Source: Actinomycetes bacterium (GTDB taxonomy: Bacteria > Armatimonadota > SYMT01). From it: 64,000 nucleotides of DNA. A program made the translations under genes and the position numbers. How positions within the stretch are numbered: the first letter of the stretch is position 1; each line of letters starts with the position of its first letter. The DNA is taken from NCBI GenBank assembly GCA_031426395.1, contig JANPLG010000182.1, forward strand, positions 6,984 to 70,983. The letters run 5' to 3'. Below, one piece after another: positions 3,307 to 61,605 of the stretch. Below the pieces are notes generated by a model. The model was given only the letters and a program-made list of their open reading frames with translations. It had not been told where the DNA came from and ran no database searches.

Positions 3307-3355
3307 TAGGAAAGTTGATGCGGCAGTTGCAGGAGTGGCTCTGGGTGCCAGCGCG

Positions 3356-3910: not shown

Positions 3911-3954
3911 AAAGTAAAGGCTTTCGGCTTCCCATCGCGGGGAGCCGGCGCAGG

Positions 3955-5146: not shown

Positions 5147-5390
5147 AGGTGTGAGGCGGTGACGGTTGCGGGTTTGCAGGAGCGGTGCTTGGGGTGATGG
5201 CGGACCTAGCGGTGACTGGTTGCCAGAGTGTGGGGTGGTCGGCATTCTCGGAAAAACATACCGGGGGGGGCACCACCACCACCTCTGGGGCGAGGGAGCG
5301 ACACGGCGAAGGGGCGACGGAGTTGCCTGGGTCTCGGAGTGGTGTACGGATGTGCGGGGAGGTGCGGCCGGTCGGTTCTCGGTCAGGGTT

Positions 5391-9643: not shown

Positions 9644-9720
9644 CCGGACTGGTCAGGCTGCGATGGAGAGCTTGAGAGATAGAGGGATGGAGAGACCCTG
9701 ACGTTGCCGTTCCCCACACC

Positions 9721-9769
9721 GCATTCCGCATTCCGCATTCCGCATTCCGCATTCCGCATTCCGCATTCG
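9721..9769. repeat. Tandem heptamer array (GCATTCC) x7 between convergent genes
   Basis: Seven perfect GCATTCC units, 78 nt after the fpg stop and 10 nt before the hemQ stop. A degenerate copy sits at 60969-61010. Confidence 0.85.
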
Positions 9770-9779: not shown

Positions 9780-10529
9780 CTACAGGTGCGCGTCCAGCTC
9801 TTCCGGCTTGACGCGGTAGCCCAGGAGGAACTGGCCGAACTCCGCGTAGACCGCGCTCACTTCGTCGAAGCGCATCTCGTAGACCAGCTTCTTGAACTGG
9901 ATCAGGTCGTCCGAGAAGAGGGTGACGCCCCATTCCCAGTCGTCCAGGCCCACGGAGCCGCCGATCATCTGCTGCACGATGCCGAAGTATTTGTGCCCGA
10001 TGGTGCCGTGGCTCTTCATCTGCCGGCGGCGCTCCTCCATCGGCAGCATGTACCAGTTCTTGTCCTCGCCCCGCTTCTTGTTCATCGGGTAGAAGACCAT
10101 GTAGCGCTTGTCCGGCACCACGAACTTGAGGCGCGCGCGGACGAACGGCGCGTCCATGGGGTTCTCGATCACACCCCGGCTGCGAATCTCGTAGAGGCTG
10201 AGCTCCGTGGCGGCGATGTAGGAGTAGGTCTCCGTGGTGTAGTCCGCCAGCCGCGTCCGGGCGAAGGCCCGTTCCAGCGCGCTGATCTCCTCCAGCGTGG
10301 GGCGCAGGTGGAGGAACATCAGGTCGGCCTTGTGCCCGATGATGCTGTAGAGGGCGCTCGACCCCTCGGGCGCGTCCGCGTGAGCTTCCGAAGCGCGAAG
10401 GAACTCCACGGCTTCGGACACGACTTCGGCGCGGTCAGCGGTGGAGAGCGCCTTCCAGCGGGGCCAGTCCAGCCGGCGGAACGTGTGGAGTGTGTACCAC
10501 CCTTCAAGCGTTTCAGGTACTTCCTGCAT
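9780..10529 (-). CDS. hemQ: Chlorite dismutase-family protein (HemQ/ChdC coproheme decarboxylase-like)
   Basis: 249 aa with family-typical blocks (WYTLHTFR, IGHK...MFLHL...), size typical of HemQ. Confidence 0.8.
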   Translation of the reverse strand: MQEVPETLEGWYTLHTFRRLDWPRWKALSTADRAEVVSEAVEFLRASEAHADAPEGSSALYSIIGHKADLMFLHLRPTLEEISALERAFARTRLADYTTETYSYIAATELSLYEIRSRGVIENPMDAPFVRARLKFVVPDKRYMVFYPMNKKRGEDKNWYMLPMEERRRQMKSHGTIGHKYFGIVQQMIGGSVGLDDWEWGVTLFSDDLIQFKKLVYEMRFDEVSAVYAEFGQFLLGYRVKPEELDAHL

Positions 10530-17283: not shown

Positions 17284-17324
17284 CAATTTGCAATTCTCAA
17301 TTGACAATTGCAAATTGACAATTC
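17284..17324. promoter_or_regulatory. AT-rich element with CAATTG/TTGCAA palindromes and two TTGACA hexamers in the yeaH-spoVR spacer
   Basis: Direct read: caatttgcaattctcaattgacaattgcaaattgacaatt. It shares the 12-mer AATTGCAAATTG with the element upstream of asnS (26221-26266). Confidence 0.4.
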
Positions 17325-17371
17325 GGAGTCGGGCTTACTTTCCCCAGATCATCCACCCACCACTCACCAAG

Positions 17372-20041
17372 ATGAACACCGAACTGGATCAGCTCACCCA
17401 GGCCATTGAGGAGATCTGGGAAGCGGGCACGGCCACCACCGGCCTCGACCCCTTCCCGATCCACTTTGAGATTGTGCCGGCCAGCGTGATGTATGAGGTC
17501 GGCGCGTACGGGGTGCCGGGGCGCTTCTCCCACTGGACCCATGGGAAGGCGTTCCACCAGATGAAGACCATGTATGACTATGGTCTTTCCAAGATCTATG
17601 AGCTGATCATCAACACCAACCCGGCGCAGGCGTTCCTGATGGAGGGGAACAGCCTGATCCAGAACAAGCTGGTGATCGCGCACGTCATCGGGCATTCGGA
17701 CTTCTTCAAGAAGAACGTCTATTTCTCCCACACGGACCGCCAGATGGCGGAGACCGCAGGCGTCACCGCAGAGCGCATCCGCGCCTACGAGCGGGAGCAC
17801 GGCGAGCGCGAGGTGGAGCAGTTCCTGGACGCCGTCCTCGCCATCCAGGAGCATATCGATCCGAACCTGCGGGTGGTCCGTGGTCCCCATAACCCGGCGG
17901 CTCCGGTGCCTGCCCGGGCGGGTGACTACGACGACCTGCTGGGCGCAAAGCCAGAAGTGAAGAAGCCACTTGACCAGGATGGTCGGACGCTCATGGCACC
18001 GGAGAAGGACCTTCTCCACTTCCTGATGCACCACTCGCCCATCTTGAACCGCAACGAAGACAAGTGGAAGACGGACATCCTCAGCATCGTCCGAAACGAG
18101 ATGCTCTACTTCCTGCCGCAGATGCAGACGAAGACGATGAACGAGGGCTGGGCCTGCGCGACCGGCGAGAGTCTGTTGGCCACGGAGAATGGTTTACTTC
18201 GCTTCAGCGATCTTTACGAGCAACGGCGCAAGATCAAGGTGGGGGGAGGCGGCGCTGGTGCGGTGCACCAGATTACGGACTTCCACCACGAGAGCCAGGT
18301 ACCCACGCTGCGAATCACCACCCGCCGCGGATACACCATCGAAGGGGCGTTGCGGCACCGCGTGCGAATGGCGGACGGCTCCTGGAGTTTCCTCGAGGCA
18401 TGTCAGCAGGGCGACGCCATCGCGCTTGCGATGGGTACCGAGGTTTGGGCTCAGGAACCTGTTCCCCTAACCTGTGAAGCGGCACCCAAAGATGTGACCC
18501 TGCACGACGTTGCGGAGGCGGCAGGAACGTCGCTTTGGACCGTCCTTCGCTTCCGGGATGGCATGAAGACGCGCAAGGACGTTGAGATCGCTCAGGCGCT
18601 CACCACCTTAGGCTATGTGGATGGCCGCGAGGGAAAGGTCATCCCCAGTAGGCGCGAGCTTACCCCACCTGCTCATTTGAATGAGGCGATGGCCCATGTT
18701 CTTGGTAGCTTTGTTGGCGACGGAAACGTCACCAAGTCGGGAATTTGCATTACCTGTGGCGACGAGGATTATGCGCGGTCACTGGCCGACCTTGCAGGCA
18801 ACGTCTTCGGGATTCCGGTCACTCTTCGCGATGATGCCACCACCACCGGTCCTCGCTTCAGGATCGAACTCCACTCAAGAGATCTGCTGCGTCTGCTTGA
18901 GAACCTCGGGATCGACCTGAAGGCTAAGGCACCGGGGAAGTCCGTGCCCTGGTGCGTCCTGCAGTCGCCGCGCCCGGTGGTGGTGGCATTCCTCGCTGGA
19001 TACTTCGATGCGGATGTCTATGCGGGAGAGCACGGGATCATCCTGAGTTCCGCGAGTTCGGAGTTGGTGCGCACAGTACAGATCCTGCTCCTGAACTTCG
19101 GCATTCTCTCCACGCAGCGCCGAAAGCCGGATGGCTGCACGCACCTCGAGATCAAAGGAAGGTCTGCAGAGCGGTTCGTGAGCGAAGTCGGATTCCGCAT
19201 GGAGCGAAAGCAACGAGCGGCGGAGACCTATGTTCGGGAACGACGCTGGTTCAAGCGAGAGGATCCCATTGATGAGATTGTGAAGATCGAGGTCGGGACA
19301 GCGGACGTCTTCGACATCACCGTGGATGAGGTCCATGCCTACGTTGCGAATGGCCTTGTACACCACAACAGCTACTGGCACAGCCGCATCCTCCGGGAGA
19401 TGGACATCACCCCGGAGGAGCACATCGAGTTCACGCGGCTCCACTCCAGCGTGCTCTCCCCCTCGCCGCGAGGGACCTCCATCAACCCCTACTACGTCGG
19501 GTTCAAGATCTTCGAGGACATCGAGCGACGCTGGAACGGCGACCTCACCCCGGACGAGCGTCGCGAGTACCGGGAGCAGAACCACGGCCGCGAGTGGCCC
19601 CACCAGGGCCGTGGCCGCGCCAAGATGTTCGAAGTTCGAGAGTTGGAGAACGACGTCTCCTTCCTGCGGAACTACCTCACCAAGGGGCTGGTGGATGAGC
19701 TGGACATGTACATCTACCGGAAGGAAGGCGATGAGTGGGTGGTGGTGGAGAAGGACTGGCGGCGCATCCGCGACATGATCGTGGAGAGCATGACCAACTT
19801 CGGCTACCCGTACCTCACGGTGGAGGATGGTGATTACCACCGCGCCCAGGAGCTATACCTCAAGCACAACTTCGATGGGCGCGAGCTGGATCAGCACTAC
19901 GCCTTCCGCACCATGCGCTACATCCACCGCCTCTGGGGCCGCCCCATCCACCTGGAGTCGCTGGTGGACGGCCAACCCACCGTCTGGACCTTCGACGGCG
20001 AGAGGGAGCTGGTGGACGGCATCGCACCGGGGGCGGACTGA
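17372..20041 (+). CDS. spoVR: SpoVR-family protein containing an in-frame intein (extein 17372-18154 + 19370-20041)
   Basis: SpoVR-like N- and C-terminal regions (…HWTHGKAFHQMKTMYDYGLSKIYEL…, …SYWHSRILREM…). Start set at MNTELDQ, because the upstream 28 codons cover the AT-rich repeat. Confidence 0.85.
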   Translation: MNTELDQLTQAIEEIWEAGTATTGLDPFPIHFEIVPASVMYEVGAYGVPGRFSHWTHGKAFHQMKTMYDYGLSKIYELIINTNPAQAFLMEGNSLIQNKLVIAHVIGHSDFFKKNVYFSHTDRQMAETAGVTAERIRAYEREHGEREVEQFLDAVLAIQEHIDPNLRVVRGPHNPAAPVPARAGDYDDLLGAKPEVKKPLDQDGRTLMAPEKDLLHFLMHHSPILNRNEDKWKTDILSIVRNEMLYFLPQMQTKTMNEGWACATGESLLATENGLLRFSDLYEQRRKIKVGGGGAGAVHQITDFHHESQVPTLRITTRRGYTIEGALRHRVRMADGSWSFLEACQQGDAIALAMGTEVWAQEPVPLTCEAAPKDVTLHDVAEAAGTSLWTVLRFRDGMKTRKDVEIAQALTTLGYVDGREGKVIPSRRELTPPAHLNEAMAHVLGSFVGDGNVTKSGICITCGDEDYARSLADLAGNVFGIPVTLRDDATTTGPRFRIELHSRDLLRLLENLGIDLKAKAPGKSVPWCVLQSPRPVVVAFLAGYFDADVYAGEHGIILSSASSELVRTVQILLLNFGILSTQRRKPDGCTHLEIKGRSAERFVSEVGFRMERKQRAAETYVRERRWFKREDPIDEIVKIEVGTADVFDITVDEVHAYVANGLVHHNSYWHSRILREMDITPEEHIEFTRLHSSVLSPSPRGTSINPYYVGFKIFEDIERRWNGDLTPDERREYREQNHGREWPHQGRGRAKMFEVRELENDVSFLRNYLTKGLVDELDMYIYRKEGDEWVVVEKDWRRIRDMIVESMTNFGYPYLTVEDGDYHRAQELYLKHNFDGRELDQHYAFRTMRYIHRLWGRPIHLESLVDGQPTVWTFDGERELVDGIAPGAD
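18155..19369 (+). mobile_element. Intein (405 aa) with a LAGLIDADG homing-endonuclease domain, inserted in SpoVR between NEGWA and SYWH
   Basis: Block A CATGESLL, with Cys1 following extein ...MNEGWA. LAGLIDADG motifs LGSFVGDGNV and LAGYFDADVYAG. Block F VFDITVDEVHAYVANG. Block G ends LVHHN followed by +1 Ser. Confidence 0.85.
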
Positions 20042-20283: not shown

Positions 20284-20420
20284 TGCCGGGGAGACGCTCC
20301 CCTCTGACAGCTAGACGGACCACGGCAGCGCAAGGTTCCAAGGCGCAGAACCCGTCGCAGAGTCGGCGCTGGTGCGTCCCGTGACGCAGCGGCACCCGCA
20401 ATTCGCAATCCGTAATCGCC

Positions 20421-23068: not shown

Positions 23069-25006
23069 CTAGTTGAATTGGACTCTTCGGTTCCGAAAAC
23101 CTGGCCCAGCGTTAAGCCCGCTGAGCCCGAATCGCAGTTCCCCCAACCCCGCTCAGCCGCCCAGTGGGAGGACGCGGGCCTGCAGGCTTGACAGCCCTCC
23201 TCGCCCGTACATCGTTCGTTTGATGGCCTTGAGGCGGTTCACGGTGCCCTCCAGCACGCCGTTGCTCCAGGGCTCCACCAATCCCGTGAGCACCGCGCTC
23301 CAGTCCTGCCGGAGGCCGGTGCAGAAGGACTTCAGCGGGCCGATCCCGCTGGCCCTCACGCGCTCGATCCACTGCTCGAGCGCGCGGGCCAGCGCCTCAC
23401 GCCCCAGCGGCTCCTCGCCGGTGTTCCCCCGCTCCCGGGCCAGCAAGCGAAGGAATTCGAGAGCCAGTTCCGTTGCCCGCCGCGCCTTGGGCGCCTGAAG
23501 GAAGAACTCCGCGGCGAAGATCGCCGCCCGGGCCGCGCGCCCGGACTTCGGGGACGGCTTGCCCAGGCCGGCGTGGAGGAGGCTCCACATCGCGTCCTTC
23601 AGCCGCCGGGCCTTGGCCGGCGGCGGCTTGGCCGGGTGGCGGGGCGGGCGGACCCCTCCCGCCGCCACAAGCGCGCGCCAGCGCCGGCGGACCCACTTCT
23701 CCACTGCGGAAGGGCCGTCCGGATAGCCCAGGGCCTGGAGCTCCCGCCACAGCTCCCCCGGTCCCCGGCACCCTTCCTCCCACCGGCGCTCGAGGCGCGG
23801 CAGATGGGGCGTCAGGGCCGTCGGCGCCGCGCGGTAGTCCTTCCTCTCGCGGAACGCGTCGCTGGCCATGAGGCGCGTGGCCGTCACGTGGTGGATGCCC
23901 AGCGCCTGGGCGATATGCTCCGCATCGGAGCCGCAAGCTTGCAGGCGCTTGACGGCTTGATACAGATCCAGGCGACGCTGGCGGCTGGCCCTGCTCCGCT
24001 CCCGCTCCGGCCCCGAAGAGCCATAACCGGGGAACCCATCATCCTGCTCCTGCTCCTGCTCCTGCCCCGGGGCCGGTGCCGAGCTCACCGCTCCGCCCGG
24101 GAGCGCCGACGCTGCGGGGGCCGCCGTTGATCCTGCTTCCTCCTGCCGAGCCAACCGCTCCGCCCGGGTGGCGGCCTCGATGGCGGCGGCCCACTGGCCC
24201 TCCTCCTGCCGGAGGTGGTCCAGCAGGGCCTGGGTCACTCCCTGCGCCAGATGGAACGGATCCGATCCCTGCGCGGACTGCGGCGCGCCCTCCCGGATCG
24301 CGGCGGCGTAGGTCTTGCTCCCGTCGCGGCTGACATGCTTGATCTCCGGGTGCCCGCGAAGCCAGGCGGCCAGCGTGGCCTGCTCACGATCCGGCAGGAG
24401 GCCGATCGGCTCATGGGTGTCGAGATCCACCAGCAGCGTGCCGTGGCGCCTCCCTTTGGCGAACGCGAAGTCATCCACCCCGAGGTGCGTCACCTTCCGC
24501 GCCGCCGCGCCGCGGTGGGAGAGGCTCCGCTGGAGTTCGCGGAGGACGGTGTCCGGGCTCACGCCAAAGCCCAGCTCGGCGGAAACAACCGCCCCGCGCT
24601 CTCCGCCCAGGCTGTGGCCGAGCAGCCGGAGCCATTTCACCACGTCGCACGCCCGGCGGCCATGGGGGGCGAGGAAACCGGGCAGCCGCTCGGTGAAGAT
24701 CCGCTGCGGGCACGTGGGGACATGGCAGAACCACTTGCGCGACTCGATGTCGGCGCGGAGGGGACAGCCGGCCCACGGGCGCAGCACGGCCACGCGGCGG
24801 TACCGGCTGTGGACCTTGGTGGAAAGCTGGTGGCAGCGCGGGCAGGCGGCTGCGGCGCGGCGGGTGGCGACGTCCAGGCGCAGGGCGCCATCGATCACGA
24901 AGGCTCGCAAGACGCGGACAAGCTCGGGCGCCGGATGCAGGGCAGGGGGTTGCATGCCTCCCCTTTCCCGCCTTGACACTTCTTGACACTGAGTCTCACC
25001 AACTTG
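23069..25006 (-). mobile_element. ISL3-family insertion sequence (about 1.94 kb), approximate ends
   Basis: Contains the ISL3 transposase ORF. Imperfect terminal inverted repeats at 23069-23090 (CTAGTTGAATTGGACTCTTCGG) and 24985-25006 (reverse complement CAAGTTGGTGAGACTCAGTGTC). It interrupts a beta-propeller gene. Confidence 0.55.
23153..24979 (-). CDS. ISL3-family transposase (608 aa, with a low-complexity Ala/Pro/QEQEQEQ insertion)
   Basis: N-terminal zinc-ribbon CPRCH, DDE region (HLGVDDFAFAKGRRHGTLLVDLDTHEPIGLLPDRE) and C-terminal ISL3 signature WSNGVLEGTVNRLKAIKRTMYGR. Confidence 0.85.
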   Translation of the reverse strand: MSRRERGGMQPPALHPAPELVRVLRAFVIDGALRLDVATRRAAAACPRCHQLSTKVHSRYRRVAVLRPWAGCPLRADIESRKWFCHVPTCPQRIFTERLPGFLAPHGRRACDVVKWLRLLGHSLGGERGAVVSAELGFGVSPDTVLRELQRSLSHRGAAARKVTHLGVDDFAFAKGRRHGTLLVDLDTHEPIGLLPDREQATLAAWLRGHPEIKHVSRDGSKTYAAAIREGAPQSAQGSDPFHLAQGVTQALLDHLRQEEGQWAAAIEAATRAERLARQEEAGSTAAPAASALPGGAVSSAPAPGQEQEQEQDDGFPGYGSSGPERERSRASRQRRLDLYQAVKRLQACGSDAEHIAQALGIHHVTATRLMASDAFRERKDYRAAPTALTPHLPRLERRWEEGCRGPGELWRELQALGYPDGPSAVEKWVRRRWRALVAAGGVRPPRHPAKPPPAKARRLKDAMWSLLHAGLGKPSPKSGRAARAAIFAAEFFLQAPKARRATELALEFLRLLARERGNTGEEPLGREALARALEQWIERVRASGIGPLKSFCTGLRQDWSAVLTGLVEPWSNGVLEGTVNRLKAIKRTMYGRGGLSSLQARVLPLGG

Positions 25007-29421: not shown

Positions 29422-29720
29422 CCATTGCGGATTTCGGATTTCGGATTTCGGATTTCGGATTTCGGATGCGGGTTGGCTGGAGGCAGGGCGTTGCTTCATC
29501 TTCGTCTTCTCCGCTCGACGGGCCGGTCGCTGGAAAACCCCGTGGACCGTCACTCTGGGCGTCCCCACCCTGCCGGCGCGCGGACTCACTGCCCTCCCAG
29601 AGTCCACCCGGATCCGTGCTCAGCGTCGAAACAGTCCCTCTGCTGCTCGGTGGCCACGGGCGACCGTGACCGGATTGGGACGCGGATTGGGACGCGGATT
29701 GGGACGCGGATTGGCTCGAG
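29422..29720. repeat. MITE-like element, subfamily A copy (5' TIR CCATTGCGG(ATTTCGG)4-5 GATGCGGGTTGGCTGG; degenerate 3' end with a (CGGATTGGGACG)x3 array at 29672-29716)
   Basis: The 5' 55 bp are near-identical to the 5' end of the 59857-60098 element. The internal region is homologous but diverged (…GGACTCACTGCCCTCCCAGAGTCCACCCGGATCCG…). Confidence 0.5.
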
Positions 29721-32444: not shown

Positions 32445-32783
32445 CGCTCAAAACCTCTCACACCGGCGACGGGTCACTCGCCCCCAGAACCATAGCCAGC
32501 GGCCTCGCGCCGCGTTCGATCACGGTAGCAGTCTCGGTAGCCGTGCCCCCGCTTGGGGTGCGTTCACTCCGAAGTGCGGGCACCGTCACCGGGAGTCACA
32601 GAACGCCAGGGGGTTTACGGTCCACCAAGCCCCCCACCGTGATCGAACGCGGCACGAGGCCGCTGGCTATGGTTGGGGGCGGGAGGTGGTCCCCAGTCGG
32701 AGCGGTCAACCAACTCTTGTCCCCAATCCAGAATCCATACACACGGGCAAGCATTGGCACGCAATCCGAAATCCGCAATCGAC
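32445..32783. repeat. MITE-like element, subfamily B copy with a long internal hairpin (CCATAGCCAGCGGCCTCGCGCCGCGTTCGATCAC ... GTGATCGAACGCGGCACGAGGCCGCTGGCTATGG) and a heptamer 3' TIR (…GCACGCAATCCGAAATCCGCAATCG)
   Basis: Arms about 34 bp with one mismatch, roughly 150 bp apart. The 3' end is homologous to the 3' TIR of the 59857-60098 element, and the core is homologous to 46653-46983. Confidence 0.6.
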
Positions 32784-37645: not shown

Positions 37646-40600
37646 GTGGACCGAGGAACGGGCGAGGAGTTTGCAGAAAACGTTGCAGTCGTTCCTATCC
37701 ATTTCACTTCTGACCATTTCACTTCCGATTGTCCCCTTGCTGTGACGGATCCACGCTGCCAGATTGATTTGCTGGGCGCACTGCGCGTGGTGCGCGGCGC
37801 GGAGTCGGTCACCCGCTTTTCCACGCGGAAGAATGCCGCGCTGCTGGCCTACCTGGCGCACCGCCTGGGACGACCGCAGCCGCGAGAAGCCCTGATCGAT
37901 CTGCTATGGCCGGACGCCGATCTCGAACTGGGGCGCCGCAGCCTGCGGACCGCCCTGACCAGCCTCCGGCACCAGTTGGAGCCGCCTGGGGTGCCGCAGG
38001 GCTCCGTCCTGCTTGCGGACCGCGCCACCGTTGCCCTGAACCCTGCAGTAGTCACCACGGATATCCGCGCCTTTGAGGCGGCACTGGCCTCCGCGAAGAG
38101 CGCAAGCCGGATCGAGGAGAAACGACAGCGGCTTTCCGACGCCCTGACGCACTACGGCGGCACGCTCCTTCCCGGTCACTACGAAGAGTGGGTCCCCTCA
38201 GAAGCGGCGCGCCTTTCGGAGCTGCACCTGGGGGCGCTGCGCGAGCTGACCGGCATTCTAGAGCAGTGCGGCGATCTTTCCGGCGCGCTGCAGCACGCAC
38301 GACAGGCGGTCACCGTGGAGCCGCTGCGGGAAGCGCCGCACGGGGAGTTGATCCGGCTCCTCATCCAGAGCGGCCAGGAACCCGAGGCGCGGCGTCAGTG
38401 GGCGGCTCTTGGGACGCTTCTCCGTGAGGAGCTGGGCACCGTTCCTAGCGCATCCCTCCAGAAGTTGGTCGATGGCTGGCTCCAGTCTGGACCGGCCCCC
38501 GCTCCCGCAACGCTGCGGACCGGCCTGCCGCCGGTGAGCGCGGCTCAGGCATTCCCCATAGACCCAGGGTCGGCTCCCCCGGAGATGCCACCCCTACCTT
38601 CGGAGTGGACGCGCTTCTTCGGTCGCGTGGACGAACTGGGCCGCCTGCGGCAATGGCTGGCCGCAGCTGCGGTAGCGGAATCGGGGGAGCGGCTAGTTAC
38701 CCTCAGTGGGCCCGGCGGCGTGGGCAAGACCCGGCTGGCGCTCCGCCTTGCGTCCGCGCTTAGGGAAGAGTACGGGGGCCGCGTGGTCTGGGTGGCCCTT
38801 GCAGATCTCTCGGACCCGCGCCTCATCCCGGACGCGCTGGCCCGGGCCCTAGGGCTGCCGCCGGCGCAGGGCGATCCTCTGGCCCAGGTGGCGGAGTTCC
38901 TGGGGGATGGCCCGTGTCTGCTGGTGGTGGACAACCTGGAACAGCTCGGCGCAGGCGCTGCCCCAAGCGTGCAGAGCCTGCTGTCCCGCCTCCCGCAGAG
39001 CCGCATCCTTGCGACTTCCCGCACGCGCCTATTGCTGCCCGGTGAGCGGGAGTTTCCGCTGACTCCTCTCCCCGTTACTCCAGACGGGGAGTCGACAGGG
39101 GAAGGGGAACTTGCTCAGGTTGCGGGATTGCCGAGCGTTCAGTTGTTCGTCGACCGCGCCCAGGCGGTCCGGCCGGACTTTCAGGTCACCGCGCGCAACG
39201 CCGGCGATTTGGTCCGCCTGGCCACGCGGCTGGAAGGAATCCCCCTAGCACTGGAGCTGGCAGCAGCGCGTGCCTCGGTGCTCACGCCGGCGCAGATGGT
39301 GGAGCGGCTGGAGCACCGCCTTGAGTGGCTGGAGACGCGGAAGGCCGACCGCCCCGAGCGCCACCGAAGCATGCGGGCGGCCGTTGAGTGGAGCTACGAA
39401 CTGCTGGGGGCCGGACTCCGAGGGCTGTTCCGCCGCCTGGCCGTCTTCCGCGGCGGTTGGTCGCTGGGGGCAGCGGAAGCGGTGGCTGTGGACGCCTCCC
39501 TCACAGCAGTACTCTCCCCCCTCGACGCGCTGGCGCAGCTTCGGGCCTCGTCGCTCGTCCAGGTGGACGCTCCCGCCACGTCCGGCGCGGAGCCCCGCTT
39601 TCGGATGCTGGAATCGCTGCGCGAGTTCGCTCTGGAGCAGCTCTCACCGGAGGAGCTGACCGCCGCCTACCAAGCCCACCTTGGGTGTTTCCTCGACCAG
39701 GCGGAGGAAGCGGCCGCGGCGATGGACACGCCCGGCCAGCAGGAAGCGATGGACCTCCTGGAATCCGAGCGGGACAACCTGCGTGCGGCGCTGGCATGGT
39801 CGCGCGAGGCCGAGCCGCTCCTGGCACTCCGATTGGCTGGCGCCCTTGGCCGCTTCTGGCGCGTGGGCGGCTATCAGCGGGAAGGTTTCGAATGGCTGGA
39901 ATCCGTGCTCGCCACCACCGAGCGGGAGGCCACGGCCAGGGAGCTCCAATCCGGGGACGCGCTCCGTTGGAAGGCCCGCGCGCTGCATGGAGCAGGCGGG
40001 ATCGCTTTTGATCGCTTGGACTATCCTGCGGCTGAACGCTACTTCAATAGTGCCGTTTCCCTCTGGGAAGCACTCGTGGAATGGGAGCAGGCCGGCATGA
40101 GCCGGGTCGGGCTGGCCATGATGCACTACCAACTCGGCGACCTCCAGCGATCCCGAGAGCAGTACGAGAAGCTGGTGCCACTGGTCAGGGAGGGCTCCGA
40201 CCTCTCCCTCCGCGCCCGCGTCATCGGCGGGCTAGGGCAGATCGCCTACATCCTCCAGGATGCGGATCCGGAGCCGCTATACCTGGAGGCCCTCGCCTGC
40301 CAGCAGGAGCGGGGCAACGTCCAGGGCCAGGGGGCGCTCTACCACGCGCTCGGCAATCTTTTCGAGCGGAACGGCGACCGGCTGGAAGCACGGCGTCACC
40401 ACGAGCTGGCCCTTGCGTGCCGGAAGGAGGCGCGATTCCGGCAGGGCATCATCTACTCCCACTTCAGCCTCTCCGCGCTGGCGAGTGGCGAGGGTGACTT
40501 CGAGCGGGCCCGGCCCCACTGCGAAGAGGGGCTTCGCCTGGCTCGCGAGATCGGGGATGAGTGGTCGATCGGCATGGGACTGAAGTGGCTCGCCAGCATC

Positions 40601-40942
40601 CACCAGGGTGCCGGGGAGTATGCCGAAGCGGAGCGGCTCTGCCGGGAGGGCCTGCGCCTCCAATGGAAGGCGCGGGACATGCAGCATATGTCCTACCTGC
40701 TGCGCGGGCTGGCGGATGCGGCGTTGGCCCTGGGCCGATTGGAGAATGCGGTGACCCTCCACGCTGCCACCGACCTGCTCCAGTCCGAGCTTGGCGGAGC
40801 GATGTCGACCGCTCCTCCGGTCGCCAGCAACCTGCGCGAGGAGGCCCGGAGCCGGCTGGGCGACCGCCGCTACGATGCGGCCACGGAGCGCGGGACCCGG
40901 ATGCCGATTGAAGAGGTGGTCCAACTCGCGCTTGAAGGGTAG
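37646..40942 (+). CDS. SARP/AfsR-like transcriptional regulator: OmpR-type winged-helix + BTAD + NB-ARC ATPase (LSGPGGVGKTRLA) + C-terminal TPR repeats; alternative GTG start at 37742
   Basis: IDLLGALRVV...LLAYLAHRLGRPQPREALIDLLWPD (wHTH), BTAD region (…GHYEEWVPSEAARLSELHL…LIRLL…), P-loop and GxP (LVVDNLEQL) of NB-ARC, several TPR-like repeats. Confidence 0.8.
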   Translation: MDRGTGEEFAENVAVVPIHFTSDHFTSDCPLAVTDPRCQIDLLGALRVVRGAESVTRFSTRKNAALLAYLAHRLGRPQPREALIDLLWPDADLELGRRSLRTALTSLRHQLEPPGVPQGSVLLADRATVALNPAVVTTDIRAFEAALASAKSASRIEEKRQRLSDALTHYGGTLLPGHYEEWVPSEAARLSELHLGALRELTGILEQCGDLSGALQHARQAVTVEPLREAPHGELIRLLIQSGQEPEARRQWAALGTLLREELGTVPSASLQKLVDGWLQSGPAPAPATLRTGLPPVSAAQAFPIDPGSAPPEMPPLPSEWTRFFGRVDELGRLRQWLAAAAVAESGERLVTLSGPGGVGKTRLALRLASALREEYGGRVVWVALADLSDPRLIPDALARALGLPPAQGDPLAQVAEFLGDGPCLLVVDNLEQLGAGAAPSVQSLLSRLPQSRILATSRTRLLLPGEREFPLTPLPVTPDGESTGEGELAQVAGLPSVQLFVDRAQAVRPDFQVTARNAGDLVRLATRLEGIPLALELAAARASVLTPAQMVERLEHRLEWLETRKADRPERHRSMRAAVEWSYELLGAGLRGLFRRLAVFRGGWSLGAAEAVAVDASLTAVLSPLDALAQLRASSLVQVDAPATSGAEPRFRMLESLREFALEQLSPEELTAAYQAHLGCFLDQAEEAAAAMDTPGQQEAMDLLESERDNLRAALAWSREAEPLLALRLAGALGRFWRVGGYQREGFEWLESVLATTEREATARELQSGDALRWKARALHGAGGIAFDRLDYPAAERYFNSAVSLWEALVEWEQAGMSRVGLAMMHYQLGDLQRSREQYEKLVPLVREGSDLSLRARVIGGLGQIAYILQDADPEPLYLEALACQQERGNVQGQGALYHALGNLFERNGDRLEARRHHELALACRKEARFRQGIIYSHFSLSALASGEGDFERARPHCEEGLRLAREIGDEWSIGMGLKWLASIHQGAGEYAEAERLCREGLRLQWKARDMQHMSYLLRGLADAALALGRLENAVTLHAATDLLQSELGGAMSTAPPVASNLREEARSRLGDRRYDAATERGTRMPIEEVVQLALEG
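37700..37725 (+). promoter_or_regulatory. Direct repeat CATTTCACTTC x2 (15-bp spacing) just upstream of the probable GTG start of the SARP regulator
   Basis: Direct read: catttcacttctgaccatttcacttc. Confidence 0.2.
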
Positions 40943-46012: not shown

Positions 46013-46651
46013 TTGAACCGAGGATCGATGAGCTTCGAGCTGCCGCCGCTCTCCACTGACCCAGCACCGACCGCGCCGCAAGGGGGCGAAGGCCCAAGTG
46101 CATCAGAACCAGGCGAAAGCCCTAGCGCACCCGAACCAGGGAAGCTGACGCCCGTAGCGGCCAGATCGGTTTTCAAGTCGTGGCCGCTGGCGGCGCAGAC
46201 GGCGGTCGGCTGCGGTTCGGGATGCGCGGTGCTGGCTCTGATGCAGCTGTTCCTGGTCTGGGGGGCGCTGGCCGTAACGGCCCATATCCGTCCACCCGAC
46301 GGCCTGGAAATTGATGCCGTGCATCCGAAGGTCGTGAAGGCGGGAGTGAAGTTTCCCCTCACCCTGGAGGTCAGGAACCGGGGCGGGGAGAGCTTCACCG
46401 TCCAGAACGTGATCGGACGGGCGTCACTGCTGGAAAAGCTTACCCTTTCCAACCCACGGCCCACCCCGAAGGAAGAAGCCAACCTGGCGGGCCAGGCCTC
46501 CTGGAGCTACGTGGAGAAGGTGCCGGTGGGCGGCACCTGGAAGCTCCAGTTCGACGCGAAGGCGAGCGAGCCGGGCGACATCAGCGAGCGGATGGACGTC
46601 CAGGTGAACCTTGCGCCCAACCCGGTGCGCATCCGCCTGAAAGTAGAGTAA
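46013..46651 (+). CDS. Hypothetical membrane-anchored protein (Pro/Glu-rich N-terminus, one TM, beta-rich C-terminal domain)
   Basis: 212-aa ORF with coherent composition. No motif recognised. Confidence 0.45.
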   Translation: MNRGSMSFELPPLSTDPAPTAPQGGEGPSASEPGESPSAPEPGKLTPVAARSVFKSWPLAAQTAVGCGSGCAVLALMQLFLVWGALAVTAHIRPPDGLEIDAVHPKVVKAGVKFPLTLEVRNRGGESFTVQNVIGRASLLEKLTLSNPRPTPKEEANLAGQASWSYVEKVPVGGTWKLQFDAKASEPGDISERMDVQVNLAPNPVRIRLKVE

Positions 46652-46652
46652 G

Positions 46653-46983
46653 CGGGATTTCGAATTTCGAGTTTCGGATTTCGAGTTGGGGACGGTGAGG
46701 CATCCGTTTTGTCGGGCGGATTCAATTCGCCATAGTCAGCAGCCTTGTGCTGCGTTCGATCACGGCGGCCGGCGTGTGACCCCACCGCACCCTCGCCCGC
46801 CATCCGCGATCCGCCTTCGCGCGACAGGTCAGGTGCAGAGACCAGCCGACTACCGTCATCGAACGCGGCACAAGGCCGCTGGCTATGGGCTGTGGCCGAT
46901 GACTGGCCGTATGACCTGATGAGCCTGCCTGGCAACACGGAGTCCGTCACCGTCCCCAACCCGAAACTCGAAATCCGCAATTG
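46653..46983. repeat. MITE-like element, subfamily B, full-length with about 35-bp heptamer-built terminal inverted repeats
   Basis: 5' GCGGGATTTCGAATTTCGAGTTTCGGATTTCGAGTTGGGGACGG. 3' reverse complement CAATTGCGGATTTCGAGTTTCGGGTTGGGGACGG. Internal long hairpin CCATAGTCAGCAGCCTTGTGCTGCGTTCGATCAC…CATCGAACGCGGCACAAGGCCGCTGGCTATGG. It sits exactly between the convergent stops of 46013-46651 and pyrD. Confidence 0.65.
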
Positions 46984-46988
46984 AGTGG

Positions 46989-47921
46989 TCAGTGGCCGCC
47001 GGGAGCGTTCCCGCGCGCCACACCGATGATCTCCCGCACGTCTGCAATGCCCTCGCAGCGCAGCCATTCCTCAAGGCCATCGATCACTTCCGGGATGGCG
47101 GTGGGATTGAAGAAGTTGGCCGTGCCGACCTGGACGGCGGTTGCGCCTGCCATCAGGAACTCCACGGCGTCCCGCCAGTTGGTGATCCCGCCGATGCCGA
47201 TCACCGGGATGCTCACGGCGCCCGCCACCTCGTAGACCATGCGGAGGGCCACCGGCTTCACGGCTGGCCCGCTCAGACCGCCGGTCCGGTTCCCGAGGAG
47301 CGGCCGGCGGTGGTCGATGTCGATCGCCATTCCCACCAGCGTGTTGATCAGGCAGATGGCATCCGCGCCGCCCGCCTGCGCCGCCCGCGCCAGGGCGACC
47401 ACGTCCGTGGTATTGGGGGAGAGCTTGGGGATCAGGGGCAGCCGGCAGACCGCCCGGCAGGCCGCCACCGTCTCCTCCACCGCCTGCGGCACCACGCAGA
47501 ACTCCGCCCCGCCCCGGCCCACGTTGGGGCAGGAGAGGTTAAGCTCGATGGCGGTGACGCCCTCCGCCGCTGCCAGCGCGGCGCATGTGTGGGCGTACTC
47601 CTGAATGGAGTTGGCGGAGACGTTCACGAAGATCGGGACACCCAGCTCGCGAATGCGCGGCAGTATGCCTTCCAGGAACCCCTCCAGGCCCGGATTCTGT
47701 AGTCCGATGGCGTTCAGCATCCCGCCCGGCGTCTCCGCGATCCGCTGGTAAGGATTGCCGGGACGAGGCCGTGGGGTGACCGCTTTCCCTACGAGCGCGC
47801 CCAGGCGGCGAAGGTCCCAGAAGCGCGCGTACTCCTCGCCCCAGCCGAAGCAGCCGGAAGCGGACATCACCGGGTTCTTCAAGGGAATGCCGGCAATCTC
47901 AACCGCAAGGGATGGGGTCAT
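46989..47921 (-). CDS. pyrD: Dihydroorotate dehydrogenase (class 1 catalytic subunit); start set at MTPSLAVEIAG
   Basis: FMN-binding TIM barrel with the active-site Cys (LSCPNV) and typical blocks (…NPVMSASGCFG…, …IPVIGIGGI…). Confidence 0.85.
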   Translation of the reverse strand: MTPSLAVEIAGIPLKNPVMSASGCFGWGEEYARFWDLRRLGALVGKAVTPRPRPGNPYQRIAETPGGMLNAIGLQNPGLEGFLEGILPRIRELGVPIFVNVSANSIQEYAHTCAALAAAEGVTAIELNLSCPNVGRGGAEFCVVPQAVEETVAACRAVCRLPLIPKLSPNTTDVVALARAAQAGGADAICLINTLVGMAIDIDHRRPLLGNRTGGLSGPAVKPVALRMVYEVAGAVSIPVIGIGGITNWRDAVEFLMAGATAVQVGTANFFNPTAIPEVIDGLEEWLRCEGIADVREIIGVARGNAPGGH

Positions 47922-48088
47922 CAACAAGGGCGAAGGGGCTGGATGAGGGGTCGCTGAGTGCAAGGGAAGGTCCGTGGGTCGCGCCGGGGATCAGGGCAGT
48001 TTTAGCCGGTTCTGGCCGAAGTGGCTCAGTTGTTGCTCACGCCGCCTTCGTCTCGAACCGGGTGTGGGCGCCACCTTCCGGAATCGCG

Positions 48089-59855: not shown

Positions 59856-59856
59856 T

Positions 59857-60098
59857 CAATTGCGGATTTCGGATTTCGAGTTTCGGATTTGGATGCGGGT
59901 TGGCTGGTTGTGGGAATCCGTATCGTCTCTTCCGGTGCGTGGACTCAACGCTCGATTCGAATCCACCCGGACCCGCACTGCGGGTGGCCAGTCCGAAGAG
60001 GGACTGCTCCGTCACGCAGTCTCGCGAAAGGCGGCTCATCTGGTGAGACGGTCGTTGTCGCACGCAACTCGAAATCCGAAATCCGAAATCCGAAATTG
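59857..60098. repeat. MITE-like element, subfamily A, full-length (242 bp) with ~30-bp heptamer TIRs, between convergent stop codons
   Basis: 5' CAATTGCGGATTTCGGATTTCGAGTTTCGGATTTGG. 3' reverse complement CAATTTCGGATTTCGGATTTCGGATTTCGAGTTGCG. It starts 2 nt after the AAA-ATPase stop and ends 10 nt before the Lon-N gene stop. Confidence 0.65.
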
Positions 60099-60108: not shown

Positions 60109-60810
60109 TCAGTTGAGGCAGACCTGAGAGGGGTCCACCCGCAGCCGGTGGGCCTGGGTCTGCTCCTGTCCCACCTTGCGCGCTCGCTCCGTACCCGCCT
60201 TCAGCAACTCCAGTTCCCGTTCCAGCCGCTCCTGCACCGACTGCATCTCTAGTAGCGCCTGCCGCTCCGCCGGATCGCCCTGGAGCACCGCGCCTACCAG
60301 GTAGGAGAGTTGCAGCGGCTCCTCCGGAAGATCCAGCTCCTGATACTCAAGGCCGTTCGCGGAGAGAATGGCGATGATGTAATCCTCCACCCCCTTCTTC
60401 ACCTGCGCCGAGAGCGGCCCAGGCGCATCCGCTGCCTCGTCCGGCAAGAACTCCACCTCGGCCTCGGCGAACGGCTGGTCCAGGAGCAGCTTGCGGATCC
60501 GAAAGCGACGCCGGCCCACCGTGTTCAGATTCCAGCGCCCATCTCCCAGGGGCACGCTGGCGACGATCTCGCAGGTAGTGCCCACGAGGTGGGGGTCCGC
60601 CGGAGTTCCCACTTCCTGCCCGGTGGAGATGAGGCAGACGCCGAAGGTGCGGTCGCCCTCCAGGCAATGGCGGGTCATCAACTGGTAGCGCGGTTCAAAG
60701 ATGTGGAGCGGCAGCGCCATTCCCGGAAAGACCACCACGTTCAAGGGGAAGATCGGAATCCGCTGCTGTCCGGTAGCCTGTCCATCTGCCTGTTCAGTTG
60801 CCTGTTGCAT
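60109..60810 (-). CDS. Stand-alone Lon N-terminal (LON substrate-binding) domain protein; start set at MQQATEQ
   Basis: …IPIFPLNVVVFPGMALPLHIFEPRYQLM… is the Lon-N signature. The upstream 237 codons of the ORF overlap greA antisense and a heptamer repeat and are rejected. Confidence 0.65.
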   Translation of the reverse strand: MQQATEQADGQATGQQRIPIFPLNVVVFPGMALPLHIFEPRYQLMTRHCLEGDRTFGVCLISTGQEVGTPADPHLVGTTCEIVASVPLGDGRWNLNTVGRRRFRIRKLLLDQPFAEAEVEFLPDEAADAPGPLSAQVKKGVEDYIIAILSANGLEYQELDLPEEPLQLSYLVGAVLQGDPAERQALLEMQSVQERLERELELLKAGTERARKVGQEQTQAHRLRVDPSQVCLN

Positions 60811-61104
60811 GACCTGTTCCGCCCGCTCGAGCGGGATCCTTACCGCATACGGGTCGATAAAGCTGTCCCCGCTGACTCGTTGTAACCAGTGACGGGCAGC
60901 GGCGGAACGTGAGCCCCGGCAAGCCCCATCTGCGGCGCAGCGGAAAGGCACCTGGACTGCGGACAACTGCATCCGCATTCCGCATTCCGCGATCCACATT
61001 CCGAAATCGCCGACCCGGTTCGTGGTAACATGAACGGACCTCGTCCAAACCCTCTCTGCGCCGCGTCCGCGCCGCGCCCTCGTTCCCGCTATAGGAGCCC
61101 CAAG

Positions 61105-61605
61105 GTGCAGAACCTTCAAAAGGGAAAGTACTACGTCACCGTCCGAGGCGGCGCGGCGCTGGAAAAGGAATTCGAGGACCTGCAGCGGAAGCGGGGCGAG
61201 ATTGCGGAGAACATCCGAAAGGCGAAAGCCTTCGGCGACCTCAGCGAGAACTTCGAGTACCACGAAGCCAAGCGTGAGCAGGGATTCATGGAGGGGCGGA
61301 TCTCCCAGCTTAAGATCATCGTCCCCAACATGGCCATCGTCTACCCCGAACAGGTGACGCCGGACAGCGTGGGGTTCGGCTCCATGGTCACCGTGCGCGA
61401 GGACACCGGTGAGGACACTGGCGAGGAGTGGGAATTCACCATCGTCGGGCCGCTGGAGGCCGACCCCATGGAGGACCGGATCTCCTATGAGTCGCCGCTT
61501 GGCGAGGCCCTCTGGGGCCACAAGGCGGGGGAGACGGTGAGCGCCAACGTCCCCGCCGGCGTGGTGACCTACGAGATCATCGCCCTCCGTGTCTACAACG
61601 GCTAA
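61105..61605 (+). CDS. greA: Transcription elongation factor GreA (GTG start, AGGAG RBS)
   Basis: N-terminal coiled-coil with acidic tip (…KAFGDLSENFEYHEAKREQ…), C-terminal FKBP-like domain. Confidence 0.85.
   Translation: MQNLQKGKYYVTVRGGAALEKEFEDLQRKRGEIAENIRKAKAFGDLSENFEYHEAKREQGFMEGRISQLKIIVPNMAIVYPEQVTPDSVGFGSMVTVREDTGEDTGEEWEFTIVGPLEADPMEDRISYESPLGEALWGHKAGETVSANVPAGVVTYEIIALRVYNG

What the first reader, a model, noticed from the sequence alone, without database searches (positions are those of the whole stretch)
46653..46983. MITE-like element with terminal inverted repeats made of tandem heptamers (subfamily B, full-length)
A ~330-bp noncoding element is bounded by ~35-bp inverted termini, themselves built from heptamer repeats (GATTTCG/CGAAATC, ending CAATTG). 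It contains a long internal hairpin with ~32-bp arms (CCATAGTCAGCAGCCTTGTGCTGCGTTCGATCAC … CATCGAACGCGGCACAAGGCCGCTGGCTATGG). It sits precisely between two convergent stop codons. A homologous core is found at 32445-32783, and the same TIR type flanks a different core at 59857-60098 and 29422-29720. Two MITE subfamilies sharing TIRs imply a cognate transposase somewhere in the genome. Alternatively these are structured sRNA genes.
Basis: seen in the sequence. Interest (0 to 1): 0.6.

Follow-up and report, generated by a model that had tools for sequence, protein, structure and literature searches.

The report
Heptamer-armed palindrome between convergent genes
A real 331-base non-coding palindrome sits between two genes, but its "transposon ends" are a common, unexplained type of bacterial seven-base repeat array found in many phyla and phages, so it is an old dispersed repeat and not a proven transposon.

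Summary
Window 46653-46983 is a non-coding nested palindrome that fills the gap between two convergent stop codons. It folds into one rod-like hairpin (about -188 kcal/mol, z about -10).

The MITE reading is only partly supported. I found no target-site duplication and no cognate transposase. Copies are only about 70% alike, and two of the four copies lack a second inverted end.

The "TIRs" are convergent arrays of tandem heptamers (CGGATTK type). The same arrays occur in at least 12 bacterial phyla and in phage contigs. They have a modal length of four units, a fixed outer register and a strict inward polarity (69 pairs against 3). Their loops are unrelated to one another.

They match the unexplained heptameric intergenic repeats described in Xanthomonas and Nostoc. 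These arrays lack the GGG tracts needed for a canonical three-tetrad quadruplex, which was the explanation offered there for four units.

The interior is a lineage-specific long hairpin. Its 36-bp basal stem is nearly identical in a paralogue at 32477-32685.

Best reading: an old, non-autonomous dispersed palindromic cassette nested in a heptamer-array hairpin. If transcribed, it probably acts as a 3'-end RNA hairpin. The mechanism of spread is inferred, not shown.

The parts
46649..46651 (+). Stop codon (TAA) of the upstream + strand ORF 46013-46651. This is a hypothetical protein with no Pfam hit and GC3 of 0.78.
46653..46702 (+). Left arm. It has five tandem heptamers (CGGGATTT CGAATTT CGAGTTT CGGATTT CGAGTTG, 46653-46688) and then GGGACGGTGAGG. 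It pairs with the right arm.
   Evidence: I2-I5; period 7, 46657-46684
46730..46888 (+). Inner long hairpin (the 'core'), with arms 46730-46791 and 46827-46888. The 36-bp basal stem (46730-46765 / 46853-46888) is nearly identical to the stem of the copy at 32490-32525 / 32637-32672.
   Evidence: (I1)
46943..46983 (+). Right arm. It reads TCCGTCACCGTCCCCAAC and then CAACCCG AAACTCG AAATCCG CAATTG. These are three heptamers in the inverted orientation plus a partial outer unit.
46989..47963 (-). Convergent gene, pyrD-like dihydroorotate dehydrogenase. Its stop codon lies at 46989-46991.
   Evidence: P0001 100% identical
32445..32783 (-). Diverged paralogue of the element. It has a long hairpin (arms 32477-32570 / 32592-32685). 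It carries a heptamer array on one side only (32760-32781, with decayed units at 32721-32739). It lies between the recX stop (32784) and the start of an MBL-fold hydrolase gene (32444), on their sense strand.
   Evidence: I1; the start codon matches the database sequence P0121, which aligns at 100% identity and coverage
59856..60098 (.). Second family. Convergent heptamer arms (59863-59890 and 60064-60097) surround a 170-nt core. It sits between the convergent stops of an AAA ATPase (59855) and a LON-N-domain protein (60109).
   Evidence: (I3-I5)
29422..29720 (+). Homologue of the 59xxx core (68% over 134 nt). It has a left array (CGGATTT x5, 29428-29462). On the right it has a 12-mer array in the same orientation (29671-29714). 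It has no inverted end and is not structured.
9719..9768 (-). Solitary array of the same class, (CGGAATG) x7 on the minus strand. It ends 11 nt from the stop of the minus-strand gene 9780-10529.
20396..20417 (-). Solitary three-unit array (CCGCAAT type) that abuts the stop of the minus-strand gene at 20421.
60972..61003 (-). Solitary array (TCCGCAT x4.6). It lies upstream of, or within the N-terminal extension of, ORF 60109-61521.

Best explanation
The tract is a two-layer, non-coding palindromic cassette that occupies the whole spacer between two convergent genes.

Outer layer: two convergent arrays of tandem heptamers (CGGATTT/CGAGTTT type). They belong to a widespread class of intergenic heptamer arrays with these properties:
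- units close to xGGAxTx;
- a modal length of four units plus a partial outer unit ATTK, giving arms of about 32 bp;
- the G+T-rich strand always running 5'->3' towards the centre.

Inner layer: a lineage-specific hairpin of about 160 nt. The sequence of its 36-bp basal stem is conserved in a second copy 14 kb away.

Most likely it is an old, non-autonomous dispersed repeat that behaves like a MITE or REPIN. Array-flanked cores were copied from one intergenic spacer to another. The ubiquitous heptamer arrays probably served as portable homology or recognition arms (gene conversion, or an unknown array-recognising enzyme). A DDE transposase that leaves target-site duplications is less likely.

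If either convergent gene reads into it, the RNA folds into a single, very stable rod. That rod would act as a barrier to read-through and to 3'->5' exonucleases.

Shown: the anatomy, non-coding status, repeat families, class membership, absence of TSD and transposase, and patchy distribution.

Inferred: the copying mechanism and any RNA-level effect.
For: Anatomy and significance.

Non-coding.

Paralogous families that include the array-core junctions.

The conserved basal stem is a genuine repeat. Two independent short-read contigs from SRR20217183 break exactly in it. L122 ends at ...GCCGCGTTCG and L165 starts at GAACGCGG....

The arms belong to a general class:
About 9 hits would be expected by my own arithmetic. 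It also hit 37 viral stretches.
- Convergent pairs: 69 against 3 divergent in bacteria, and 23 against 2 in viral contigs.
- Unit count peaks at 4, in 134 of 240 arrays.
- 207 of 287 arrays begin in the register ATTK.
- Period 7 dominates all tandem repeats in these loci: 405 arrays against 43 for period 6 and 36 for period 8.
- Arrays with unrelated unit sequences also form pairs of 4-5 units, with a G+T-rich 5' arm in 22 of 29.

All intergenic orientations are used, which fits selfish or neutral DNA rather than a terminator.

Relatives with 81-86% identical PyrD show no such arrays in 66 kb. The arrays were therefore gained or expanded in this lineage.

The same features (GGGANTN units, majority four units, 70-75 convergent pairs, about 90% intergenic, close to the neighbouring ORF) were reported for Xanthomonas (PMC4692102).
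Against: - Only two copies of each core were seen, at about 70% identity, so recent mobility is not shown.
- No empty site could be examined. Synteny downstream of pyrD and upstream of the MBL gene is not conserved in the available relatives.
- In other genomes the loops between arrays are unrelated. Only 1 homologous pair was found among 44 loops. The arrays themselves, not array-plus-core units, are therefore the recurrent entity. This fits in-situ origin or independent array formation as well as copying.
- The arms are only weakly mirrored at the variable unit position (0.736 against 0.676 +/- 0.026 for shuffled partners). Selection for a perfect hairpin is therefore weak.
- There are no transcription data.
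Confidence: 0.42

Rival explanations
1. Classical MITE: a deletion derivative of a DNA transposon. A DDE transposase encoded elsewhere in the genome binds the heptamer TIRs and moves it by cut-and-paste.
For: It has inverted ends of about 36 nt, is small and non-coding, and falls into two core families that share end type. The array orientation is strictly polar, as expected of transposon ends.
Against: - No TSD at any window copy or at 68 related hairpins.
- The number of units differs between the two ends (5 and 3).
- Half of the copies lack one end.
- Copies are about 70% identical.
- The window's ISL3 transposase has unrelated ends.
- Distant array pairs in other genomes enclose ordinary genes.
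- The same ends flank unrelated loops of 5-324 nt in many phyla.
Confidence: 0.13
2. In-situ simple-sequence evolution. The heptamer arrays arise and are kept locally by replication slippage or template switching (the slippage idea that PMC4692102 and PMC4679880 report from earlier work on simple sequence repeats). The 'element' is just an intergenic spacer that holds two such arrays and an unrelated hairpin. Nothing moves and nothing is selected.
For: Period 7 dominates tandem repeats whatever the unit sequence. Loops are unrelated. The arms are poorly mirrored. The arrays abut coding sequence, as if they expand until constrained. In Xanthomonas most arrays sit between the same genes in two species, with length variation.
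Against: - Pure slippage does not predict a sharp mode at four units, a fixed outer register (ATTK) or a 69:3 polarity.
- It does not predict the same unit family recurring at many loci and in many phyla.
- It does not predict 17/17 identity of the array-core junction in two loci of this window.
Confidence: 0.17
3. Functional cis-acting RNA: a giant 3'-UTR hairpin that terminates or insulates convergent transcription and protects both mRNAs. Alternatively, an independently transcribed structured sRNA.
For: - Extreme fold stability.
- Placement exactly between convergent stops, here and at 59856-60098.
- In the 32xxx copy the sense (minus) strand folds 17.6 kcal/mol better than the other strand.
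- Between the two copies the basal stem shows one compensatory change (T-A to C-G). My own reading of alignment A1 gives a 3:1 excess of G.U-compatible mismatches in the orientation 46xxx(+)/32xxx(-).
- Phage contigs carry such hairpins between co-directional genes.
Against: - No Rfam match.
- No promoter-like site and no U-tract terminator.
- The class polarity puts the U-rich arm 5' and the A/C-rich arm 3', which is the opposite of an intrinsic terminator.
- Related hairpins are as common in divergent as in convergent spacers.
- The 29xxx copy is unstructured.
- Only two sequences are available for covariation.
Confidence: 0.18
4. Protein-binding heptad arrays. Each array of about four contiguous 7-bp units is a binding platform for a protein that polymerises with one subunit per heptad, on DNA (ribbon-helix-helix type, as for omega/ParB of pSM19035) or on single strands (Csp/S1 type). 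The palindrome is then two such platforms facing each other.
For: - The sequence is conserved (xGGAxTx) rather than the pairing.
- Sharp register and a modal four units.
- Omega/ParB needs at least four contiguous heptads for activity (PMC9499535).
- CspB binds one protein per heptamer, as reviewed in PMC4679880.
Against: Heptamer arrays with quite different unit sequences show the same architecture in the same genomes. No single sequence-specific protein fits that. No candidate gene was identified, and the density of sites is very high (several per 8 kb).
Confidence: 0.1

Closest known systems
Heptameric intergenic simple-sequence repeats GGGAATC (Xanthomonas) and GGGGA(C/T)T (Nostoc), Rehm et al. 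2015 (PMC4692102). The cyanobacterial STRR heptamers are related (recalled from memory; the primary papers were not read).
   Same: Tandem 7-nt units with the same conserved positions: GGGANTN there, CGGATTK/CGGAATG here, i.e. xGGAxTx. Most arrays have four units. About 90% are intergenic and close to the neighbouring ORF. Many occur as convergent pairs, one on each strand. They are spread over the genome next to housekeeping genes. No function is known.
   Different: The units here carry GG, not GGG. The canonical three-tetrad quadruplex proposed there to explain the four-unit preference therefore cannot form, yet the preference persists. Here the arrays bracket a 250-nt interior with its own conserved hairpin and a paralogue. 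The distribution shown here spans many phyla and phage contigs.
TAACTGA heptamer direct repeats of Beggiatoaceae, Cyanobacteria and Bacteroidetes (MacGregor 2015, PMC4679880)
   Same: Short intergenic heptamer arrays of 2-6 copies lie next to gene boundaries. Their patchy cross-phylum distribution suggests horizontal spread, with no mechanism known.
   Different: Those are almost all direct arrays in sense orientation just upstream of start codons, with only one inverted pair among 170 sets. Here convergent pairs dominate and there is no bias relative to gene orientation.
MITEs, for example the Correia/NEMIS elements of Neisseria (own knowledge)
   Same: Size of 100-350 bp, non-coding, inverted ends, intergenic, able to form long RNA hairpins, and present as several subfamilies.
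   Different: MITEs have a fixed TIR sequence, TSDs, many near-identical copies and a related autonomous IS. None of these was found here.
REPINs / REP-BIME elements mobilised by RAYT (Bertels and Rainey 2011, PMC3116915)
   Same: Two inverted conserved modules with a less conserved spacer form a hairpin in ssDNA or RNA. They are extragenic, lack TSDs, and singlets are interpreted as decayed doublets.
   Different: REP modules are themselves short palindromes specific to one RAYT and one lineage, with a fairly constant spacer. Here the modules are tandem heptamers, the spacer ranges from 5 to 324 nt, the same module occurs across phyla, and no RAYT was seen.
Omega (RHH ParB) heptad operators/parS of pSM19035 (PMC9499535)
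   Same: Contiguous 7-bp units in direct or inverted arrangements, with at least four units needed for function.
   Different: The unit sequence differs (own knowledge: WATCACW). There are only a few sites on one plasmid, and the binding protein is known. Here there are many chromosomal sites and no known protein. This is a resemblance in how it might work, not a membership.

Membership tests
MITE | Terminal inverted repeats | tested here: met
   36 nt at 83% at 46663-46698 / 46947-46982 and 29 nt at 90% at 59857-59885 / 60070-60098. Absent from the copies at 32445-32783 and 29422-29720.
MITE | Target-site duplication flanking the element | tested here: not met
   The flanks are GTAAG / AGTGG at 46xxx and CTGAT / TCGGT at 59xxx, with no direct repeat. 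None was seen at 68 related hairpins.
MITE | Many near-identical copies in the genome | tested here: inconclusive
   There are two copies of each core in 64 kb, at 67-72% identity. Short-read contigs break in the conserved stem, which is consistent with a repeat.
MITE | A related autonomous element with the same ends | tested here: not met
   The only transposase in the window is ISL3-type with unrelated ends. No transposase lies between distant arrays in L017 and L041. A genome-wide search was not possible.
MITE | No coding capacity | tested here: met
   Six-frame comparison of the copies shows no favoured frame.
REPIN / REP | Two inverted REP modules, each a short palindrome, with a spacer of conserved length | tested here: not met
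   The arms are tandem heptamers, not palindromic REPs. The spacer ranges from 5 to 324 nt. Definition from PMC3116915.
REPIN / REP | Association with a RAYT (TnpA-REP) gene | not testable with these tools
   Among the window ORFs scanned against Pfam (roughly the last 15 kb was only partly scanned), the only transposase-type hit was ISL3. The whole genome is not available.
Heptameric intergenic SSR class (GGGANTN type, PMC4692102) | Tandem 7-nt units with conserved G2 G3 A4 T6 | tested here: met
   The units are CGGATTT, CGGATTG and CGGAATG, with local variants CGAGTTT and CGAATTT.
Heptameric intergenic SSR class (GGGANTN type, PMC4692102) | Preference for four units; intergenic, next to an ORF end; frequent convergent pairs | tested here: met
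   134 of 240 arrays have four units. Outer edges lie a few nt from ORF ends. There are 69 convergent pairs against 3 divergent. In the finding itself the arms have 5 and 3 units.
Heptameric intergenic SSR class (GGGANTN type, PMC4692102) | G-quadruplex potential (four GGG tracts) | tested here: not met
   The units carry GG only, as seen directly in the sequence.
Any Rfam RNA family | Score at or above the family's gathering threshold | tested here: not met
   No hit at any of the four elements. The best sub-threshold hits are plant miRNA precursors, at 32.7 and 38.8 bits against thresholds of 168 and 124.
Intrinsic (Rho-independent) terminator | G+C-rich hairpin followed by a U-tract | tested here: not met
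   No terminator-like site lies in 46652-46988. The 3' arm is A/C-rich and is followed by CAATTGAGTGG.

The most novel reading that the evidence does not exclude
The heptamer arrays are not passive microsatellites. They are the product, or the recognition site, of a dedicated and horizontally transferable machinery. That machinery writes arrays of about 32 bp in fixed register, with the G+T-rich strand pointing inward, at the edges of intergenic spacers in many bacterial phyla and their phages.

One concrete version is templated, telomerase-like repeat addition to both 3' ends of a break, followed by joining. This would give exactly the observed head-to-head polarity, independent (poorly mirrored) arms, unrelated loops and solitary arrays. 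Cores such as the one at 46730-46888 would then be cargo captured or exchanged between such sites.
Probability: 0.1. Interest if true: 0.85.

Novelty: new variant of a known kind. Interest (0 to 1): 0.5.

Why it matters
Over-representation of heptamer repeats in bacterial intergenic DNA has been noted since 2007 and remains unexplained. PMC4692102 and PMC4679880 both say so.

This case and its relatives add constraints that any explanation must meet:
- a modal arm of four units even without GGG tracts, which argues against the canonical (three-tetrad) G-quadruplex rationale;
- a fixed outer register;
- a 69:3 inward polarity of the G+T-rich strand, which also holds for unrelated unit sequences;
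- presence in phage genomes;
- patchy distribution among close relatives.

These constraints make the question testable by phylogenetic profiling, pull-downs and population sequencing.

For annotation, it warns against calling such structures MITEs on the strength of 'shared TIRs' alone.

Tried and rejected
- Core search: the 21-mer GCRCRAGGCCGCTGGCTATGG gave one chance hit in JGI metagenomes, inside what reads as a PIN/VapC-like coding sequence (my reading, not scanned). It gave none in viral contigs. The cores matched none of the loci held at that point (L001-L127).
- Empty-site test: I fetched regions from relatives around PyrD (86%, 82%, 81% and 86% identity) and the MBL hydrolase (62%). 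In every case the neighbouring gene differs, so no orthologous spacer exists to compare.
- Exact-protein look-ups with the longest-ORF starts failed.
- Cognate transposase: the ISL3-family gene at 23153-24979 was examined and its ends are not heptameric. Distant array pairs in L017 and L041 enclose TPR, glycosyltransferase and unknown genes.
- Terminator idea: rejected on the missing U-tract, the wrong arm polarity and equal use of divergent spacers.
- CsrA-sponge idea (GGA every 7 nt): dropped because the arrays lie on either strand relative to transcription.
- Perfect-hairpin selection: only weak mirroring of the variable unit position.
- Coding potential: none.
- 6S-like or other known RNA: nothing in Rfam, even at E up to 5.
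- Comparison of near-identical phage contigs (L128 and L164): uninformative, because the hairpin region is identical.
- Literature searches for the exact repeat strings found nothing relevant.

Full report
**1. The observation**

The tract 46653-46983 is as described. It lies between the TAA stop of a + strand ORF (46013-46651; no Pfam domain, GC3 0.78) and the stop of a minus-strand pyrD-like dihydroorotate dehydrogenase (46989-47963; PF01180, E 6.9e-76). Only 1 nt and 5 nt of the spacer lie outside it.

The repeat finder gives terminal arms 46663-46698 / 46947-46982 (36 nt, 83%). It gives an inner inverted repeat 46730-46791 / 46827-46888 (62 nt, 76%). The arms are runs of heptamers. The left arm is CGGGATTT CGAATTT CGAGTTT CGGATTT CGAGTTG. 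The right arm is CAACCCG AAACTCG AAATCCG CAATTG. Both continue inward into a shared GTTGGGGACGGTGA.

The heptamer motif is far from chance, with 16 matches in the window against 0.16 expected. The whole tract folds into one rod-like hairpin, at -187.8 kcal/mol (z -10.0) on the + strand and -189.3 kcal/mol (z -8.9) on the - strand.

**2. The other copies**

The copy at 32445-32783 shares the long hairpin (arms 32477-32570 / 32592-32685). Overall identity is about 67-72%. The 36-bp basal stem is almost identical. It has a heptamer array on one side only. It lies between the recX stop and the start of an MBL-fold hydrolase gene, on their sense strand. The database sequence P0121 matches that ORF at 100% identity and coverage, so the start is confirmed.

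59856-60098 has good heptamer arms (29 nt, 90%) around a different core. It also sits between convergent stops.

29422-29720 shares that core (68% over 134 nt), including a 17/17 identical array-core junction. Its far side carries a 12-mer array in the same orientation, and the tract is not structured.

There are therefore two core families. Only two of the four copies have inverted ends.

**3. MITE tests**

- No target-site duplication flanks any copy.
- Copies are about 70% alike.
- The two ends of the finding have different unit numbers.
- The window's one transposase (ISL3 family, 23153-24979) has unrelated ends.
- The tract is non-coding. Six-frame similarity between copies is the same in all frames and on both strands.
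- No Rfam family matches. The only hits are plant miRNA-hairpin models far below threshold.
- There is no promoter-like site or U-tract terminator.

**4. What the 'TIRs' are**

I scanned one genome per species (GTDB) for ATTGCGGATTTCGRRTTKCG. My own arithmetic for 596 Gb gives about 9 expected by chance.

The hits come from Planctomycetota, Acidobacteriota, Nitrospirota, Verrucomicrobiota, Chloroflexota, Gemmatimonadota, Bacteroidota, 'Deltaproteobacteria', Sumerlaeia, Acidimicrobiia, Hydrogenedentota, Binatia and others. Thirty-seven stretches of IMG/VR viral contigs also carry it. One set of phage-like contigs has about six such hairpins per 12 kb between co-directional genes. One ORF in that set hits a head-tail adaptor family.

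In these loci the arrays show the following properties:

- **Polarity.** They occur as convergent pairs (CGGATTK)n ... (MAATCCG)n 69 times, and in the opposite order 3 times. In viral contigs the counts are 23 and 2.
- **Loop length.** Loops run from 5 to 324 nt, with a median of about 33.
- **Unit number.** It peaks sharply at four, in 134 of 240 arrays.
- **Register.** 207 of 287 arrays start in the same register, preceded by ATTK.
- **Position.** Outer edges lie within a few nt of an ORF stop or of an opposite-strand start.
- **Orientation.** All spacer types are used, divergent as often as convergent.
- **Loops.** They are unrelated, with one homologous pair among 44.
- **Mirroring.** The arms are only weakly mirrored at the variable unit position (0.736 against 0.676 +/- 0.026).
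- **Flanks.** No TSDs were seen. Distant array pairs enclose ordinary genes.

**5. The periodicity is more general than the sequence**

In the same 822 kb, period-7 tandem repeats number 405, against 43 for period 6 and 36 for period 8. About half have other unit sequences.

Twenty-nine inverted pairs with unrelated units also have 4-5 units per arm and short loops. In 22 of them the 5' arm is the G+T-rich one.

The window itself holds eleven period-7 arrays. A distant relative's spacer upstream of the MBL gene contains a hairpin whose arms, on my reading of the sequence, are four GTA-anchored heptamers.

By contrast, four relatives with 81-86% identical PyrD show no CGGATTK arrays in 66 kb. 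The distribution is therefore patchy even at short phylogenetic distance.

**6. Source organism**

PyrD and the MBL protein are identical to database entries from an NCBI contig of 71,930 bp and from Logan assemblies of SRR20217183. The nearest named homologues are Armatimonadetes/Armatimonadota MAG proteins.

Two short-read contigs of that run break in the conserved basal stem of the two core copies. This is expected of a repeated, palindromic k-mer.

**7. Comparison with the literature**

Rehm et al. 2015 (PMC4692102) described GGGANTN heptamer arrays in Xanthomonas. There are about 185 per genome. The majority have four units and about 90% are intergenic. They lie on average 28 nt from the neighbouring ORF. 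There are 70-75 convergent pairs, one on each strand. They described related GGGGAYT arrays in Nostoc. No function was found, and the four-unit preference was read as the minimum needed for a G-quadruplex.

In the same register, the units here (CGGATTK, CGGAATG) have the same conserved positions but only GG. The four-unit preference therefore cannot rest on canonical (three-tetrad) G4 formation.

MacGregor 2015 (PMC4679880) described TAACTGA heptamer arrays with a patchy cross-phylum distribution and no known mechanism. That paper also cites the earlier finding that heptanucleotide repeats are the most abundant class, and the polymerase-slippage idea.

REPINs (PMC3116915) resemble these elements in behaviour, but their defining features are not met.

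Omega/ParB of pSM19035 shows that a protein can read contiguous 7-bp units and need at least four of them (PMC9499535). This is a working analogy only.

**8. Interpretation**

The finding is best read as a composite: a lineage-specific long-hairpin core nested between two arrays of a widespread heptamer class. The two loci of each family share array, junction and core, so whole cassettes were copied between spacers at some time.

Without TSDs or a transposase, I think copying guided by the ubiquitous arrays is more likely than classical transposition. This could be gene conversion or an unknown array-recognising enzyme. That step is inference.

If the element is transcribed from the flanking genes, the RNA would form a very stable rod. 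The 32xxx copy folds 17.6 kcal/mol better on the sense strand. Between the copies, the basal stem shows one compensatory change and a 3:1 excess of G.U-compatible mismatches in the orientation 46xxx(+)/32xxx(-). These are weak hints of RNA-level constraint.

Rival readings remain open and are scored separately. They are a classical MITE, pure in-situ slippage, a functional RNA, and protein-binding heptad platforms.

**9. Verdict**

The MITE interpretation is partly supported. The element is a new variant of a known but unexplained kind of repeat. Its main value lies in the constraints it adds to the heptamer-repeat problem: four units without GGG tracts, fixed register, inward G+T polarity, presence in phages and patchy distribution.

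Noticed in passing
window 5422-5799 (within 4854-6408): Four matches to Rfam Acido-Lenti-1 RNA lie above the gathering score. They form two pairs 66 nt apart, and the pairs are 267 nt apart. They sit inside about 1.5 kb with no convincing gene. The only long ORF there, 5145-6389 on the minus strand, has no Pfam hit.
   Followed up: partly
window 5031-5144: The longest heptamer array in the window, (GGTTCCC/GGTTTCC) x16, has no inverted partner. It lies just upstream of the Acido-Lenti-1 copies.
   Followed up: no
window 17288-20041 (+): A SpoVR-like protein is interrupted by an intein with a LAGLIDADG homing-endonuclease domain (PF04293, PF14528, PF14890). It lies downstream of a DUF444 gene.
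   Followed up: no
window 23153-24979 (-): This is an ISL3-family DDE transposase ORF (PF01610). No clear terminal inverted repeats were found around it. GGACTCTTCGGTTCCGAAAA near 23081 may be one end.
   Followed up: partly
window 37646-40942 (+): This is a large BTAD + winged-helix + AAA + TPR regulator (SARP-LAL-like). That family is reported to bind heptameric direct repeats (title of PMC5930380; the 11-bp spacing of those sites is from my own knowledge). This is probably a coincidence.
   Followed up: no
L124:10989-11033 and L124:2-38: A relative (PyrD 81% identical) has a hexamer array (GGAGTA x7.5) in the 490-nt spacer after pyrD. It also has an octamer array (TGGCCGGT x4.6) and no CGGATTK arrays.
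   Followed up: partly
L128, L134, L142, L164 (IMG/VR contigs 3300002460_000314, 3300025326_000195, 3300002460_000292): These phage-like contigs (GC about 0.48) have about six heptamer hairpins per 12 kb between co-directional genes. All share the constant outer flank GAAGAATTG...CAATTCTTC. Hairpins within one contig are 95% identical to each other over 62-80 nt.
   Followed up: partly
L019 (Chloroflexia MAG DASVQO010000194.1), 692-6352: Nine convergent heptamer hairpins lie in 7 kb. They are built from AATTCTT/GAATTTA/TAGTGGT-type units, with 4-5.6 units per arm and loops of 12-20 nt. The architecture is the same but the unit sequences are unrelated.
   Followed up: partly
L168:3840-3930 (relative, MBL 62% identical): The spacer upstream of the MBL gene holds a canonical U-tract terminator. 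It also holds a separate hairpin whose arms are four GTA-anchored heptamers (GTAACGA GTAGTCC GTAATGC GTAGGCA), and a (GGATGAA-like) period-7 run.
   Followed up: no
L122 (end) and L165 (start), Logan contigs of SRR20217183: Both short-read contigs end at the same point of the conserved basal stem (…GCCGCGTTCG / GAACGCGG…) of the two core copies. This is an assembly break caused by the repeat.
   Followed up: yes
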